From Paramecium tetraurelia (taxonomy: Eukaryota), in NCBI GenBank assembly GCA_000165425.1, contig CT868185.1, positions 124,001-188,000 of the forward strand: DNA of 64,000 nucleotides. Direction: 5' to 3'. The position numbers and the translations under genes were made by a program. The notes beneath the pieces were generated by a model. That model did no database searches. It was not told the origin of the DNA and saw only the letters and a program-made list of their open reading frames with translations. The number at the start of each line of letters is the position of its first letter. Position 1 is the first letter of the stretch. Shown piece by piece: positions 55,195 through 61,079 of the stretch.

Positions 55195-56316
55195 TCATTA
55201 CAATGATAATTTCTTACTTAGTATTGGTTTAAAAGGGATAGATTAATAATATTAGATTTAATTCGATTTCTTTTTTTTCTCTTGTCGTTGATGTTCTTAA
55301 TACAATCGATCGAATGGATTGGATTCTAATTAAAATTAAGTCACATATGAATTGTTATCCGATTATGGTTTCTTAATTAACGATTCGGATTTCTTATTCA
55401 TATGTGATATTGAATTATCTTTTACTTCTGAAACAGATTTCACACTGCTGTGATTATAGAGTCTTTCAAACACTTTCTCATTTTGTCTGCAATTACTTTA
55501 TTGGTTTATAGCAGGTGCAAATGTGCATTAATCTAATTCAATTTATTAAAGTTCTTCTTATTTCAAAACCATATTATTCATTTTCTCGAAGTGATGATTA
55601 TAAAGTCTCTCCTCTACTGAGATACCTTCCTATTATTGCAATCTCATCGGAGTGCTGATTAATTAAGGACGATAAGTAAAGGATGAATCCTCAAAGTTCC
55701 TGGGTGTCTTATTTCTTTAACTCAATGCATTTTAATAGAGTCTATCAAAGGGATTTTCAACCGATTGGTTGTTACCAATTGACTTGGTATTAATAGATGG
55801 TTTAAAAGTGCAATCCTTTAATTCCTATTTCTAATTAAGTTCTTAAACTATTTGTAATTTAATTTTAGAGTCCATGGCATAATTGTTCAATCTAATATGA
55901 GCAGGCGAACTCAACTCTAATTTTTAACTCTTCTTTGTTATTTAAGGTTTAAACGTGCACTCCTTCATAAGATGATTGATTTACTAATCTCGTTTGACTA
56001 TTTGATTCTCCTCATTCAGTATATGCTATTCATACAGATGATTTAATTAAGAACTAGACTTTGTATGTATTTCACTAACTGACATCTTCCTTTATTAACT
56101 TTCCAATGGAGATTCTTACTTTTGATCTCCATTATTATTGTTCCATATCCTCACAATACGTGCAGACAATTCAATCATTTATTCTCTGTTTAGAGTAATC
56201 AAATGCATCAGAAGAGTTTCTTCCAAAGTGCTTTTTTACATCTTGAATTATTCTTTCTGAGCCAAGAGCCCAACATTTCTGCAAAAGTTAGAAAACTCGT
56301 TCAGATATTAAACCAT
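55195..56316 (-). CDS. Hypothetical protein with CTFxP / F(D/E)RLY repeats (probable microtubule/cortical cytoskeletal protein)
   Basis: Repeats ECTFKPQI, DCTFKPSI, CTFAPAI alternating with FDRLY/FERLY; TGA 55195-55197. Confidence 0.7.
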
Positions 56317-56534
56317 AATATTTATATCAGATAATTAAGGTAAATTTATTTTATTAGCACCCTTGATACAATTGATAATTGTAGATCAATGTTCTGATGT
56401 TACATATTTGACTTAATTAATGAAATTACTAAGCACAAGAGTACTATGTATAATCATGGTTTAATTATAATTTAAATTAGCTTTATTATATATTACATAA
56501 TCATATTTAAATGTTTAGATATAATATTTACAAA

Positions 56535-57962
56535 TCAACGTAGGCTCTATCTTTTAGCTGTCATTTGTTTTAGTAGGATATAGCCTACTATCAGGTATAT
56601 TATCTCAACTATCAACCATAATATTGCATAATTGTAAATGCTATCTGTGCAACTGGTGACGGCGTTCTGAACAACAGAAATGGCTTTAAGGATTCCTTAA
56701 TTTTGAAAGCAAGTCTTATTCAATAATTATTGTGTGTATTATGCAGTTTTCTTTAGTCCTTCTTTATTGTTTAATCCATACTAGAATACAAATTATGACA
56801 AGATGACAACTATTGCCATTACAACTCCTAAGATGACTATACTTTTTTCAAGTATTTCATTCAACTTAACTTTGTAGGTCACTTTCAATAGGTTGATGTT
56901 CTTAGATTTTAATTTTGATTTGAATTGAATTCCTAGTTTGATAACAGCAAAAAATATAAATCCAATAGTGAATAGAATGAATGAGAAATAGCACACCACA
57001 AGTTCAAAAACCTAGATGAAAAGACAAGAAATATAGCATTATGAAAATTTATATCTTATAGCTTATTGGCATTCTTCGCCTTGATTAACATAGAGTTTTC
57101 TTAAGACATAGATTTTCATAGGGTCATCATCGTTATGATATTTCTCATAATAAGGTAAATTGGAAGTGAAGATATTGTTTTCGTTGATCAGCTAACCATG
57201 GGTTGTTTCAGCCAACATGATTGCATCATCCTTCCAAGTGGAATAGCGATCACAGCCAATGTATTGAATAGTAGAAAATGGATATGACAATTTAGATTAT
57301 TTGTTTGGGCCTAGGGCTGTGTTGAAACATGGTTTATCTGGAGCAATAATTAGTTTGTAAAAGTCTCCTGCTAGAATATCTTCTTTTCTGGAGAAGGCAT
57401 ATTTAGAATCCATAAATTTAACACCATCTTCATGGAGATCGACTTCTTGGGCATTGTTTAATCCATTCTTACCGTTGGAATCCTCATATTGAATGCAATA
57501 TTATCTGCCATCCAAGGTATACAGTTTCTGTTAGGCTGTTGTGTCCACATATTTGCAAGGTTTCAAACATTGTTGATTGGAGGTTTGCATGTTAGGACAA
57601 ATGCAGCCTCGGTTTGTTCCAGGAAAATAACCGAGAGATGACATGCATGTGTCACTCTCAGACTTTTCAGCAATATTGGTTATTACTTACTAAGTTACTT
57701 ATTTTTATAAGACTTTAATAACTGTGTAAGCAGAATTCAAATCTTCATAAAACTTATCAACTGGCAATTCTTGCATTATGAGGTAGCCAAAAATAAATGA
57801 AATGATCAAATTAATTAGTGTTAAATGTACAATATGATTATTGTTTTTAAGTTTTTGTTATTAATTCATAGCTCCGATGATGGCTATTCTTTGATTCTTT
57901 AGAGTTTGAAATAAGGTTTAATCTTCAAAAGGGTTATCCTGATAATTGATTGTTTGAATCAT
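56535..57962 (-). CDS. Multi-pass membrane protein with Cys-rich extracellular loop
   Basis: N-terminal TM, Cys-rich segment (FPGTNRGCICP..CLKPC), then several hydrophobic C-terminal helices. Confidence 0.7.
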
Positions 57963-58015
57963 AAGATAATAATAATTATATTTTATTTTATATGTTTTGA
58001 TACTCAATTGATTCA

Positions 58016-59026
58016 TCATTTAAACAGAACCAAAATGCAAGTCATATTATCACAACCAGTACCCACTAGAAAATAGTGTTTAATATTTACATGAGGTATC
58101 TTTAGCCAACAATTAATCAAGCAATTTTTCAGTAGCCTTCTACAGATTTTGACTAGATTTCAATTCCTAATTAACAAAATTAAGTATTTATTGATGATCC
58201 CATGTTTCAAACACTCCATCACATCCCATTAATAAGAACCTGATGAATAATGAATGGATATTAATTACTTATCGGAAGCAGTCAATTGTGTTACTTTAAC
58301 ATCAGGTAATGCACTGATAATCTATTCTTCAGGCTTAAATCTGCTATCTTTTTTGTACTCCAAATCTCCCAAAGCTCTTGATAACGAAAGGTTTCCTAAA
58401 ATATTGTTATATGTCAAACCGTTAGCACGACCATCAGAAACGAAACCTCCAGCTCTTTCAATTCTCTTTTTCTCTTAATCGTCATCTGGCTTGTGATCTT
58501 TACTCATGTCAAATGGTTTTCCATCTCTATTTAAAAATGACCTTGAATCTCCTGCATTGGCAACATACAAAGTTTTGCCAACAATCAATGCAACATTAGC
58601 AGTGCATCCAGCCAAAGATGCTAAAGATTTGGAAATAAATTACTTTCATCATTTACTCCTCTTATTTTATTCAACTCATCCTAACCAGAAGGCTCTTATA
58701 ACATTTTATCAATTTTGAAAAATGTCTCTGTCAATGCCTTCTCATAATTTTTTTATTGATAGTTTTTATTCTTCATCAATTCTTCTCTGAAATGTCTTTC
58801 TGCAAATATTGCTACTTCACTTCCTCCGTGACCATCGAAAACAGCGAACAAATGGACATCTGGCTCGATGTTCATGTCTGAAATGTGGGCATCCTCCATT
58901 GTATTTCTCCATCCTAAGTTAATCACACTTCATACCTTGCATGTGAGTGGCAGCATATTGGAAAACCTAATTTTAGCCTGTAACTGTAGACTTCTCTGTT
59001 TTTGGTTGGCTTAGATACGGTCCCAT
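58016..59026 (-). CDS. Protein phosphatase 2C (PPM family), N-myristoylated type
   Basis: [64 protein letters not shown]. Confidence 0.96.
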
Positions 59027-59062
59027 TTAGACTTTATTATTTAAAATAGATATTTATTAATA

Positions 59063-60421
59063 ATGTTCATTATTGCATATGCTCTTTAACTCAATATCTA
59101 TTTAGGCAAAATTTAAGATCCACTCATCCTCCCCAATCACACTGGCATGCTCGTTGACATATTTTAAGATGTCATCGACTCCTTTAAAACTCGCAGAAAT
59201 GAACAAGTAGATTTGCTCTATGTGGATCAACCTGATTAAGCCAATATAACTTTTAACTTTATAAGAAATTATAATTAAGAAAAGAGCATTGTTCTCACTT
59301 AAGACGCAATTCAATTGGACTACTCCCAATATGATGTATTTCCTATGAGTTATGCAAGCAGTTGTCAAAACCAATACTTACAGAAAATTATATTTTTATT
59401 TATCCCAGTCTTGTCGTTACACTTTTCTCTAGGATTGTATGGGAACTCTTTTTCAATTACATCATCATTATTTTCCCTTGGATTATGATCTATGCAAATT
59501 TTATGATTTTCTTCCTTTCCAAACAAAAGTACAAAACCTACTCCAAAAAAATACGAGTATCACTTCAAATTCTTGTTGGCAATCAAGAAACCAATCAGTA
59601 TCATTATACTTAATCAAATAGATCTACCCTAATACTGAAAATCATGTTTATCATAATCACCTTCTTGATAAGCGCCATCATATTCATCGACTTTATTTAC
59701 GTTGTTGGAAATGCAATCCAGAGACAAAATTTTAATTCACTTAATGATCTGGCCATGAATCAATTTCAATTATGCTCTGTCAAAAATGATAGATTCGTCT
59801 CTGACATGATTTAACGTTATCGTGACATCAGCTACCAAGAAAAAGACAACATCCAATAATGCATTGACGTACTTCATTCCATCAAATATACAAGACGCTC
59901 TTTAAAAATGAAGATGCTGTCATCTTTATAAGCGAGTTCTAATATGGACTCTTTCTCAAGAACTACCCAGAATACACCTACTTAAAGTACTAGTTAAAGT
60001 ACAACTCTTATAGAAGCTATCAATTGCTATTTAATTCAACTATTGATTTCAATATACGGAAAGTACCATTACAATTTCACAATAGGACATCAATGCATCC
60101 ATCGATTAATTGTGGCCTTAGAAATATGATCTGGATGTCCGGAATAAATATTTGGTCTAGTTAGTCTATGTTAAATCTGCAGTCGTTTCCTTAATCTTTA
60201 CGAATAAGACCTTTCTAACTACGAGCATCATGATTTCGATCACTTCCATCCTCTTAATTTAAATATCAATTGTTCGAAAACAATGCCGATTATGTCGCAA
60301 AAAATTACCCTTCCCATTCATATCCCATAAAGCCAAAGTAATACGCTCCAAAGAAAATAAAACCAATATGAATGATTCACAAGTATTTATAACAGGGATT
60401 CTAGAAGAATTAAATAATTGA
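59063..60421 (+). CDS. Divergent ionotropic glutamate receptor-like membrane protein lacking an amino-terminal domain
   Basis: With three introns (59336-59361, about 59869-59894, about 60063-60085) the order is S1-like, YDLSKPIL, M1, pore-like segment, M3, NSLNDL, S2-like, M4. Confidence 0.6.
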
Positions 60422-60747
60422 TTATTAATTTGCTTAATTTAATATTTTTAAAATTATTATAAATATATTACCACTCTGGTCTAATTAAACTTTTATTTAA
60501 TTTTTAAAGGAAAATATAGGCTTGATCTATACACACTATTATTAAACTAAATTATTATCTGTCCTTCATCCGCAATTATTAGAATATCAATTATTTTTAT
60601 TCAAATTTTTTCAACTTATAATGCACTTTTAGTAAATTCCTTTGCTTAATTTAATTCCTTTGCAATTTATCATCATATATCATAAAATTTAGAAATGATT
60701 ATCAATACATAAACTAAAAAATAGAAGCAATTGTTATTTATATTTAT

Positions 60748-61079
60748 TCAATTGTATCTGTAGGTTTTAGAGTTGATTTCTTTGCCCCCAACTTATGTTA
60801 TGATTTTTAGGGTAGCCTTGTCTTTTGTTTTCTGCCCAATCTAACAAGGTTTGCTAGAAGCATACTGAAACTCTTTTTTAATTAATTTTTTTTTAAATTA
60901 CAGCACCATTGTTTTGGAAGCTGCATACTTGATGTTTAATTTTAAGGATGCCTAATCATTATTATAATTATTACTTCTCTAATTTTCATTCCAATTTAGA
61001 AGACTAATTACAATAAGGCTTACTTCTGAATTTGAGAAATCTTCACATATTATCTTTTATTAGCAGATCTCTTAACCAT
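60748..61079 (-). CDS. Small HTH protein (paralog of 61585-61922)
   Basis: MVKRSANKRQYVKISQIQKQALLQLVFQIGMKIRE|ASLKLNIKYAASKTMVLQFKKK; one intron. Confidence 0.72.

What the first reader, a model, noticed from the sequence alone, without database searches (positions are those of the whole stretch)
59063..60421. Minimal, highly divergent iGluR-like channel or chemoreceptor without ATD, ligand Arg or SYTANLAAF
Seen after splicing, in order: DPLILPNHTGMLVDIFQDVI (S1-like); IVLTQDAIQLDYSQYDLSKPILTENYIFIYP (compare GluA2 IDFSKPFMSLGISIMIKKP); FSRIVW plus TM; RVSLQILVGNQE; TM; NFNSLNDLAMNQFQLCSVK; IQQCIDTL..AVIFISEF; IRKDINASIDQL..VRNKYL; final TM. Established: this is the S1-M1-P-M3-S2-M4 order of iGluRs and insect IRs, and Paramecium shows chemoattraction to glutamate. 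Inference: the alpha-carboxyl-binding Arg appears replaced (LTQDA vs ITxxR) and the M3 gate motif is absent, suggesting an independently diversified, IR-like chemosensory family in ciliates.
Basis: partly seen in the sequence, partly recalled or inferred. Interest (0 to 1): 0.75.

Follow-up and report, generated by a model that had tools for sequence, protein, structure and literature searches.

The report
Divergent glutamate-receptor-like channel gene in Paramecium
This Paramecium gene encodes a small membrane protein whose predicted fold matches animal glutamate-receptor ion channels although standard domain searches miss it, making it a candidate sensory channel of unknown ligand.

Summary
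Window 59063-60421 (+), read in the ciliate code, is a real, conserved gene. A fourth, 24-nt intron (59598-59621) gives a 419-aa protein that aligns without gaps to annotated Paramecium orthologues (395/419 and 375/419 identical).

Pfam and PDB sequence searches find nothing significant. Family profiles touch periplasmic amino-acid-binding proteins only weakly (E 0.004-0.04).

Fold evidence is clear. AlphaFold models of the orthologue and of a distant relative match iGluR chains over about 400-470 alignment columns (Foldseek E 4.7e-8 and 2.4e-12). This holds for 43/43 and 38/39 listed hits; the one exception is a soluble glutamine-binding domain. A protein-language-model search points to the same families.

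The topology is signal peptide, S1, M1, pore helix, M3, S2, M4, with no N-terminal domain. SYTANLAAF is absent; an invariant DFIY motif sits in its place. The canonical ligand-binding arginine is not conserved.

The protein is therefore a fold-level, Pfam-invisible member of the iGluR superfamily. The "diversified IR-like chemosensory family" reading is not supported: the family is small and its Paramecium orthologues are highly conserved. Channel activity, ligand and role are inferred, not shown.

The parts
59063..59335 (+). Exon 1 (aa 1-91). It encodes a hydrophobic N-terminal signal-like peptide (aa 1-15, 59063-59107) and most of S1, including the family-conserved G28, D32 and I33.
   Evidence: model; hydropathy; conserved columns.
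59336..59361 (+). Intron 1: 26 nt, GT..AG, phase 0. Retention would shift the frame.
   Evidence: The orthologues are colinear across it. The database ORF P0003 is the unspliced read-through of this intron.
59362..59597 (+). Exon 2 (aa 92-169 plus two bases of codon 170). It encodes the end of S1 (DLSKP strand), pre-M1/M1 (aa 106-143, 59404-59517, invariant P130-W131) and the short amphipathic pore helix M2 (aa 151-163, 59539-59577).
59598..59621 (+). Newly proposed intron 2: 24 nt, GTA..TAG, a multiple of three, no in-frame TGA. If retained it would insert 8 residues between the pore loop and M3.
   Evidence: both 419-aa orthologues lack exactly these residues. Paralogue P0004 keeps extra residues at the same place.
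59622..59868 (+). Exon 3 (aa 170-252). It encodes M3 (aa 170-205, to 59727) with the invariant DFIY motif (aa 193-196, 59689-59700) where iGluRs carry SYTANLAAF. It also holds the start of S2, with invariant C221 (59773-59775), near-invariant D226 and invariant C250 (59860-59862).
59869..59894 (+). Intron 3: 26 nt, GT..AG, phase 0.
59895..60062 (+). Exon 4 (aa 253-308): the middle of S2 (lobe 2), including the conserved S265 followed by E266.
60063..60085 (+). Intron 4: 23 nt, GT..AG, phase 0.
60086..60421 (+). Exon 5 (aa 309-419 plus the TGA stop). It encodes the end of S2 (to aa 343, 60190), M4 (aa 344-381, 60191-60304) ending in a basic cluster, and a cytoplasmic tail (60305-60418).

Best explanation
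This is a genuine, conserved Paramecium gene of five exons encoding a 419-aa protein. The protein is a stripped-down, highly divergent subunit of the ionotropic-glutamate-receptor superfamily. A signal peptide puts S1 outside the cell. M1, a re-entrant pore helix and M3 form the channel module, which is inserted into a periplasmic-binding-protein-type clamshell. S2 returns outside and carries two invariant cysteines that may form a disulfide. M4 and a basic tail end in the cytoplasm. By analogy with solved iGluRs, four subunits would form a pore. Closure of the S1/S2 clamshell on an extracellular small molecule would pull on the outer end of M3, here the invariant DFIY motif, to gate it. The ligand is probably not a standard alpha-amino acid bound in the canonical way. 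The S1 arginine is not conserved, and the S2 helix-cap position that carries Ser/Thr in amino-acid binders carries a conserved Asp. Shown here: the gene model, its conservation, the topology, and the fold-level match to iGluRs. Inferred: tetramer formation, conduction, gating, ligand class and cell-surface location.
For: Gene reality. The protein aligns without gaps to annotated orthologues at 395/419 and 375/419 identity.

Topology. There are three strong hydrophobic segments plus a weak one at aa 150-165 and an N-terminal hydrophobic peptide. The M1-M3 linker has net charge +5. NxS/T sequons occur in S1 and S2 (two each, with two more in the C-terminal tail), and the two invariant Cys lie in S2.

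Fold, orthologue P0001. The AlphaFold2 model has pLDDT 72.6, with the TMD and S2 at 78-96. Foldseek against the PDB gave at least 500 hits at E<=1e-3. All 43 listed rows are NMDA, AMPA or kainate receptor chains. The best is E 4.7e-8 over about 400 alignment columns.

Fold, distant relative P0021. Residues 1-440 are mostly pLDDT 75-90. 38 of 39 listed rows are iGluRs: GluD2 at E 2.4e-12, ATD-deleted GluD2 at TMt 0.49, and GluA4 LBD-TMD at TMt 0.52. The remaining row is the soluble GlnPQ substrate-binding domain at TMt 0.69.

Specificity control. In the viral structure library only 1 hit passed E<=1e-3.

Independent sequence-feature search. The top ESM Atlas clusters carry Lig_chan, SBP_bac_3 and Lig_chan-Glu_bd, with score 0.95 and 196-201 of 256 features shared. 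The TMD alone gave Lig_chan clusters at 0.91, which is a lead only.

Weak but coherent profile hits. The A1 profile's best PDB hits are periplasmic amino-acid-binding proteins: 6a80 at E 0.0043, and 2ia4, 2y7i and 4zv1 at 0.04-0.25.

Conservation pattern. M1 (0.39) and M3 (0.41) are the most conserved regions, as expected if the membrane module is functional.
Against: No Pfam family reaches threshold on the exons, the orthologues or 12 relatives. Lig_chan never appears. The only related hit is SBP_bac_3 at E 0.012 (15.8 bits against a cutoff of 26.4) in one relative.

phmmer of P0001 against PDB sequences finds no iGluR, and no profile search lists an iGluR chain.

Global TM-scores for the P0001 model are only 0.20-0.30, with rmsd about 17 A. 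The match is therefore by local fold and order, not a rigid superposition. The S1 lobe of that model has low confidence (pLDDT 52-57 for aa 51-100).

The pore helix and loop are the least conserved parts of the family (0.20 and 0.16). The loop ranges from polar/acidic to strongly basic among relatives. That is unexpected for a conserved selectivity filter.

The canonical gate motif and the ligand arginine are missing. There are no expression, localisation or electrophysiology data.
Confidence: 0.6

Rival explanations
1. The protein has the iGluR fold but no longer works as a ligand-gated pore. It would act as a non-conducting receptor, adhesion or scaffold subunit, or as an obligate partner of another subunit. 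Delta receptors and some IR subunits behave this way (recalled).
For: The pore helix and loop are the least conserved regions and vary in charge among relatives. The gate motif is replaced. The best structural match for the distant relative is GluD2.
Against: M1 and M3 are the most conserved parts, with invariant PW and DFIY. That is hard to explain if the membrane module were only an anchor.
Confidence: 0.2
2. It is the Paramecium L-glutamate chemoreceptor. It would be a ciliary iGluR-like channel mediating attraction to glutamate.
For: Paramecium is attracted to L-glutamate, which binds cilia and hyperpolarises the cell. A candidate 'NMDA-like' receptor is cited only from an unpublished MS thesis (passages of review PMC8964087; reference list of PMC4588038). 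The iGluR-like fold is shown.
Against: The S1 arginine is not conserved, and a conserved Asp sits where amino-acid binders place Ser/Thr. The glutamate response is described as a K+ conductance with a rapid cAMP rise, which is not obviously an iGluR-type cation current. I could not establish identity with the thesis candidate.
Confidence: 0.1
3. It is an iGluR-like channel of an internal membrane, such as the contractile vacuole complex, alveolar sacs or trichocyst membranes, rather than a surface chemoreceptor.
For: High conservation and low copy number fit a housekeeping role better than environmental sensing.
Against: The signal peptide, the sequons and the paired cysteines in S1/S2 fit either a luminal or an extracellular face. 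Nothing here discriminates between them.
Confidence: 0.12
4. It is not related to iGluRs at all. It would be a lineage-specific 3-4-TM protein whose AlphaFold models and Foldseek hits are artefacts of shallow alignments.
For: No significant sequence or profile hit to any iGluR. The alignments are shallow (20-28 rows), TM-scores are low for the P0001 model, and its pLDDT is moderate.
Against: Two models built from different first sequences converge on iGluRs across the full length. The viral library gave a single significant hit. An embedding search that does not use structure agrees. The weak profile hits are all to the expected binding-protein class.
Confidence: 0.05

Closest known systems
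Animal iGluRs (AMPA GluA1-4, kainate GluK2, NMDA GluN1/2, delta GluD1/2), especially ATD-deleted LBD-TMD constructs
   Same: The domain order is the same: S1, M1, re-entrant helix, M3, S2, M4. The fold matches over about 400-470 Foldseek alignment columns. The clamshell is split by the pore module.
   Different: There is no N-terminal domain. Sequence identity in the structural alignments is about 10-15%. Pfam Lig_chan gives no match. The SYTANLAAF gate is replaced by an invariant DFIY. The ligand arginine is not conserved. The pore loop is unconserved. The protein is only 419 aa.
Protostome Ionotropic Receptors (IRs), the variant chemosensory iGluRs
   Same: Divergent ligand-binding domains that lack some or all glutamate-contacting residues (passage of PMC2924276). 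Most IRs lack the N-terminal domain (recalled).
   Different: IRs are a protostome-specific, large and rapidly diversifying repertoire that HMMs recognise as iGluR relatives. This family is tiny (27 representatives), its Paramecium orthologues are highly conserved, and Pfam does not detect it. The resemblance is one of trend, not of clade.
Prokaryotic GluR0-type channels
   Same: A minimal architecture without an N-terminal domain, with a binding-protein clamshell flanking the pore (abstract of PMC2950845).
   Different: GluR0 has a K+-channel-like selectivity filter and lacks M4 (recalled; figure legend of PMC12455266). No GYG-type filter is present here, and M4 is present. A scan of bacterial and archaeal genomes gave no relative.
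Bacterial family-3 solute-binding proteins (for example 6a80, DEBP 2ia4/2vha, STM4351 2y7i, GlnPQ SBD1 4la9)
   Same: These are the only class reached by sequence profiles. SBD1 superposes on the relative's clamshell at TMt 0.69.
   Different: They are soluble or lipid-anchored and have no inserted channel module. The E-values are weak (0.004-0.25).
Cafeteria roenbergensis virus protein E3T502, annotated 'putative ABC-type amino acid transporter'
   Same: It is the only significant viral structural match. The alignment spans the full length of the query: 468 alignment columns (gaps included) against the 419-aa model, E 1.1e-8. Like this protein, it is a protist-associated, ATD-less look-alike with a misleading or absent annotation.
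   Different: It is a giant-virus protein of 514 aa. The relationship was not examined beyond this one hit.

Membership tests
iGluR superfamily (fold and architecture level) | Order S1, M1, re-entrant pore helix, M3, S2, M4, with an extracellular N-terminus | tested here: met
   Hydropathy. Secondary-structure order in two AlphaFold models. Charge and sequon distribution. Full-length Foldseek alignments to iGluR chains.
iGluR superfamily (fold and architecture level) | A bilobed type-II periplasmic-binding-protein clamshell interrupted by the channel module | tested here: met
   The model of distant relative P0021 matches ATD-deleted GluD2 (TMt 0.49), GluA4 LBD-TMD (TMt 0.52) and soluble GlnPQ SBD1 (TMt 0.69). 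For the Paramecium orthologue, S2 is confident but the S1 lobe is weak (pLDDT 52-57).
iGluR family as defined by Pfam (PF00060 Lig_chan, PF10613 Lig_chan-Glu_bd) | An HMM match at or above the gathering score | tested here: not met
   No Lig_chan or Lig_chan-Glu_bd hit, even at E<=10, on the four exons or on P0001/P0002, nor at E<=1 on 12 relatives.
Canonical glutamate- or glycine-gated iGluRs | A SYTANLAAF-type gate motif at the outer end of M3 | tested here: not met
   The family alignment shows an invariant D193, I195 and near-invariant F194, Y196 at that place, and no SYTANLAAF. The positional equivalence to the iGluR motif is by my own register, recalled, and not by a computed alignment.
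Canonical glutamate- or glycine-gated iGluRs | The ligand-contacting Arg in S1, Ser/Thr at the S2 helix cap, and an acidic residue in S2 for the alpha-amino group | tested here: inconclusive
   No conserved Arg in S1 upstream of the DLSKP-like strand. D226 is conserved where HMMER aligns the SGT(T) of a Glu/Asp-binding protein. S265-E266 align with its acidic pair. These alignments are below significance, and no structural residue mapping was available.
iGluR superfamily (function) | Tetrameric assembly and ligand-gated ion conduction | not testable with these tools
   This needs biochemistry and electrophysiology.
Protostome IR clade | Phylogenetic placement inside the IR clade of protostome animals | not tested
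   No iGluR or IR sequences could be brought in for a tree. A ciliate origin makes clade membership implausible, so the similarity is of kind only.
GluR0-type prokaryotic K+-selective glutamate receptors | A K+-channel signature in the pore loop and absence of M4 | tested here: not met
   There is no GYG/GFG-type motif between M1 and M3 in any of 11 aligned members. M4 is present.

The most novel reading that the evidence does not exclude
This gene founds a ciliate-restricted, Pfam-invisible clade of the iGluR superfamily. The clade would have rebuilt both the gate (a ring of invariant Asp in DFIY instead of SYTANLAAF) and the ligand pocket (Asp replacing the carboxylate-binding positions). 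It would therefore sense a cationic or amine cue rather than an amino acid. It would serve as a ciliary or surface chemoreceptor channel feeding directly into Paramecium's membrane-potential-driven swimming behaviour. That would be an independent, unicellular parallel to insect IRs.
Probability: 0.12. Interest if true: 0.8.

Novelty: new variant of a known kind. Interest (0 to 1): 0.55.

Why it matters
Receptors for most Paramecium chemical attractants have never been identified at the molecular level. The glutamate receptor candidate is cited only from unpublished theses.

An older survey reported iGluRs absent from the unicellular eukaryotes it examined. A 2025 eukaryote-wide iGluR phylogeny mentions no ciliate in its main text or in its 6 searched supplementary files; a further file, a PDF without text, could not be read.

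A ciliate protein with the complete iGluR LBD-TMD architecture that escapes Pfam has two consequences. First, domain-based censuses undercount this superfamily in protists. Second, it provides a small, RNAi-tractable candidate for ligand-gated signalling in a classic excitable cell. Its altered gate and pocket would also be a natural experiment in how much of the iGluR consensus can be dispensed with.

Tried and rejected
- **Pfam on the exons and orthologues.** Each exon and the full-length orthologues gave only noise hits.
- **Pfam on 12 relatives.** No Lig_chan. One sub-threshold SBP_bac_3 hit.
- **phmmer against PDB sequences.** Nothing relevant.
- **Profiles A1, A3 and A4 against PDB sequences.** Only weak binding-protein hits and never an iGluR.
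- **Word-indexed homologue searches.** These added few members: 2 of 157, 5 of 7,888 and 5 of 8,000 candidates.
- **Paralogues in the window.** None by tblastn or by a family HMM over 1,284 six-frame ORFs.
- **Bacterial and archaeal genome scan.** 38 pattern matches, 0 relatives.
- **K+-channel filter in the pore loop.** Absent.
- **Complex prediction.** I submitted four copies of M1-M3 (aa 100-212). The verdict was 'no answer' with score 0.00. The alignment was not used, the partner's own fold was under pLDDT 50, and the controls were not run. This is not evidence either way.
- **Source names of unnamed relatives.** The listing of cluster members could not be run because the database was switched off. 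The organisms behind P0005-P0031 (other than the Paramecium entries) therefore remain unknown, and 'ciliate-restricted' is an assumption.
- **Literature.** Ten full-text searches found no description of this protein, or of an iGluR-type gene, in Paramecium. They found only the thesis citations.
- **Rejected reading: chance ORF or pseudogene.** Rejected because of the gap-free orthologues.

Full report
**Gene model**

Window 58700-60800 is AT-rich (GC about 0.29-0.35). It reads as coding only in the ciliate nuclear code. An ATG at 59063 opens a frame. Removing three short GT..AG introns keeps that frame open to a TGA ending at 60421. The introns are 59336-59361, 59869-59894 and 60063-60085, of 26, 26 and 23 nt, all phase 0.

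A search with exon 2 found two annotated Paramecium proteins of 419 aa: P0001 from P. primaurelia and P0002 from P. sonneborni. Both are named only 'transmembrane protein' and carry no precomputed Pfam domain. Both lack eight residues of my first model. Those residues correspond exactly to a 24-nt GTA..TAG element at 59598-59621.

With that fourth intron removed, the window protein is 419 aa. It aligns to P0001 and P0002 without a single gap, at 395/419 and 375/419 identities. That conservation, not the ORF length, is what shows the gene is real. Long chance ORFs abound here because TGA is the only stop. No transcript data were available to me.

The size and form of the introns match what I recall of Paramecium introns. 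The new intron is a multiple of three without an in-frame stop. I recall that class being under-represented in Paramecium (no paper seen for this).

**What sequence searches say**

Pfam finds nothing meaningful in the four exons, the two orthologues or twelve more distant relatives. The single related hit is SBP_bac_3 at E 0.012 (15.8 bits, below the 26.4 cutoff) at the N-terminus of one relative. phmmer against all PDB sequences finds nothing relevant.

An exhaustive phmmer of P0001 against 1.84 billion representative proteins returned only 27 proteins at E<=1e-3 (12 at <=1e-10). Many are short fragments. A few are full-length at 395-610 aa and 21-29% identity. The word-indexed searches added three more.

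Profiles built from these reach only periplasmic amino-acid-binding proteins in the PDB. The hits are 6a80 at E 0.0043, the Glu/Asp-binding protein 2ia4/2vha at 0.043, 2y7i at 0.071 and 4zv1 at 0.25. They align to the region after the second strong hydrophobic segment (weaker with A3). These hits are individually weak, but all belong to the class expected for an iGluR ligand-binding domain.

No paralogue lies in the window. No relative was found in one-per-species bacterial and archaeal genomes.

**Topology**

Family-averaged hydropathy gives the following:
- an N-terminal hydrophobic peptide;
- three strong membrane segments at aa 107-145, 168-207 and 344-378;
- a weakly hydrophobic stretch at about aa 150-165.

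The linker between the first two segments has net charge +5. M4 is followed by a basic cluster. The two long hydrophilic regions each carry two NxS/T sequons (two more sequons lie in the C-terminal tail). The second hydrophilic region holds two cysteines that are invariant across the family. This arrangement fits S1-out, M1, a cytoplasmic re-entrant helix, M3, S2-out, M4, tail-in.

**Fold**

AlphaFold2 on P0001 with a 28-row family alignment gave mean pLDDT 72.6 and pTM 0.59. The membrane helices and S2 scored 78-96, but S1 residues 51-100 scored only 52-57.

Foldseek against the PDB returned at least 500 hits at E<=1e-3. All 43 listed rows are iGluR chains (GluN1/2, GluA1-4, GluK2). The best is E 4.7e-8, and the alignments span about 390-470 columns, which is essentially the whole protein. 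Global TM-scores are low (0.20-0.30, rmsd about 17 A). I attribute this to a different relative placement of the domains in the monomer model, but I could not verify that.

As a check on the family, I folded the distant relative P0021. Residues 1-440 are mostly pLDDT 75-90, and the tail is disordered. Its hits are stronger. GluD2 scores E 2.4e-12, ATD-deleted GluD2 has TMt 0.49 (rmsd 8.6 A), and GluA4 LBD-TMD has TMt 0.52. 38 of 39 listed rows are iGluRs. The other row is the soluble glutamine-binding domain SBD1 of GlnPQ at TMt 0.69. That hit directly shows a binding-protein clamshell with an insertion.

In the viral structure library only one protein passed E<=1e-3, which speaks for specificity.

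The ESM Atlas feature search does not use structure. It put P0001 next to clusters carrying Lig_chan, SBP_bac_3 and Lig_chan-Glu_bd, with score 0.95 and 196-201 of 256 features shared. All ten best named hits belonged to one clan. The tool states that scores of 0.95 arise about once in 100 for shuffled proteins. The membrane module alone gave Lig_chan clusters at 0.91, which is only a lead and is uncalibrated for parts of proteins.

**How it differs from known iGluRs**

- **No N-terminal domain.** Only about 105 residues precede M1.
- **Gate.** At the outer end of M3, where iGluRs carry SYTANLAAF by my register (recalled, not computed), the family has an invariant D193 and I195 and near-invariant F194 and Y196.
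- **M1.** It carries an invariant Pro-Trp pair.
- **Conservation.** M1 and M3 are the best conserved regions (mean pairwise identity 0.39 and 0.41). The pore helix and following loop are the worst (0.20 and 0.16). The loop is polar/acidic in Paramecium and strongly basic in other members. No K+-channel signature is present.
- **S1.** No arginine is conserved upstream of the DLSKP-like strand.
- **S2.** HMMER aligns a conserved Asp (D226) with the Ser-Gly-Thr cap of a Glu/Asp-binding protein. It aligns the conserved Ser-Glu (265-266) with that protein's acidic pair. These residue equivalences rest on sub-significant alignments and are hints only.

**Most likely mechanism**

I read this as an ATD-less subunit of the iGluR superfamily. 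It most likely forms a tetrameric pore. The pore would be gated by closure of the extracellular S1/S2 clamshell on a small molecule, with the pull transmitted to the DFIY end of M3.

The fold and topology are shown. Oligomerisation, conduction, ligand class and location are inferred by analogy. The pocket changes argue against canonical glutamate or glycine binding. The conserved Asp residues make a cationic or amine ligand worth testing.

A tetramer prediction of the M1-M3 module gave no verdict and is recorded only under the things tried.

**Rivals**

- The protein is a non-conducting iGluR-fold receptor or an obligate partner subunit. The unconserved pore loop favours this.
- It is the long-sought glutamate chemoreceptor. 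Its pocket residues, and the K+/cAMP nature of the glutamate response described in a review (PMC8964087, passages), argue against this.
- It is an internal-membrane channel.
- The fold match is an artefact. This is unlikely given two independent models, a specificity control and an independent embedding search.

**Relation to the literature**

- Passages of PMC8964087 and the reference list of PMC4588038 show that a Paramecium glutamate receptor candidate ('NMDA-like', 'NMDA receptor associated protein') exists only in MS theses. I could not see them, so I cannot tell whether it is this gene.
- A passage of PMC2924276 states that iGluRs were absent from the unicellular eukaryotes examined, and that IRs lack some or all glutamate-contacting residues. 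The main text names neither Paramecium nor Tetrahymena.
- PMC12226733 (sections and passages; supplements) reports iGluRs in Chloroplastida, Cryptista, Amoebozoa and Discoba. It contains no mention of Paramecium, Tetrahymena, Ciliophora or Stentor in the 6 supplementary files searched; a further file was unreadable.
- Ten full-text searches found no description of this protein.

**Verdict**

The architectural interpretation is supported at fold level. The 'diversified IR-like chemosensory family' and the glutamate link are not supported by the census or the pocket, and they remain untested.

I rate the protein a new variant of a known kind: a Pfam-invisible, minimal iGluR-superfamily protein with a replaced gate motif. 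It is of moderate interest.

**Open points**

- Transcript support is missing.
- There is no residue-level structural mapping.
- All functional claims are untested.

Noticed in passing
window 58160-~59027, minus strand: A protein phosphatase 2C gene lies head-to-head with the iGluR-like gene. Pfam PF00481 scores E 1.1e-35 and 1e-10 on two exon ORFs. Its apparent start codon lies only about 35 bp from the ATG at 59063, so the two genes would share a tiny divergent promoter region.
   Followed up: partly
window 59598-59621: The newly proposed 24-nt intron is a multiple of three and has no in-frame TGA. Retention would not trigger a premature stop; it would insert 8 residues between the pore loop and M3. 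This is a possible source of two protein isoforms.
   Followed up: partly
protein P0004 (P. sonneborni, 276 aa): This is a second Paramecium copy whose annotation keeps extra residues at the position of the 24-nt intron. It then runs into a frame that mirrors an alternative frame of the window gene. It is either a mis-annotated ohnologue or a decaying one.
   Followed up: partly
protein P0003 (141 aa, no source): The protein database holds the window's own exon 1 read straight through intron 1. This is an unspliced ORF call, not a real protein.
   Followed up: yes
BFVD entry E3T502, Cafeteria roenbergensis virus: A giant-virus protein annotated 'putative ABC-type amino acid transporter' is the only significant viral structural match. 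The alignment covers the full length of the iGluR-like model: 468 alignment columns (gaps included) against the 419-aa query, E 1.1e-8. It may be a viral iGluR-like channel with a misleading name.
   Followed up: no
window 55195-56385, minus strand: A 396-aa open frame with no Pfam hit carries three copies of a C-T-F-x-P-x-I motif. Each copy is followed some 20-30 residues later by a F-[DE]-R-L-Y motif. It looks like an unannotated repeat protein.
   Followed up: no
window 56535-58049, minus strand: A 504-aa open frame without a Pfam hit. It has a cysteine-rich middle part and hydrophobic segments at both ends. It is probably another lineage-specific membrane protein.
   Followed up: no
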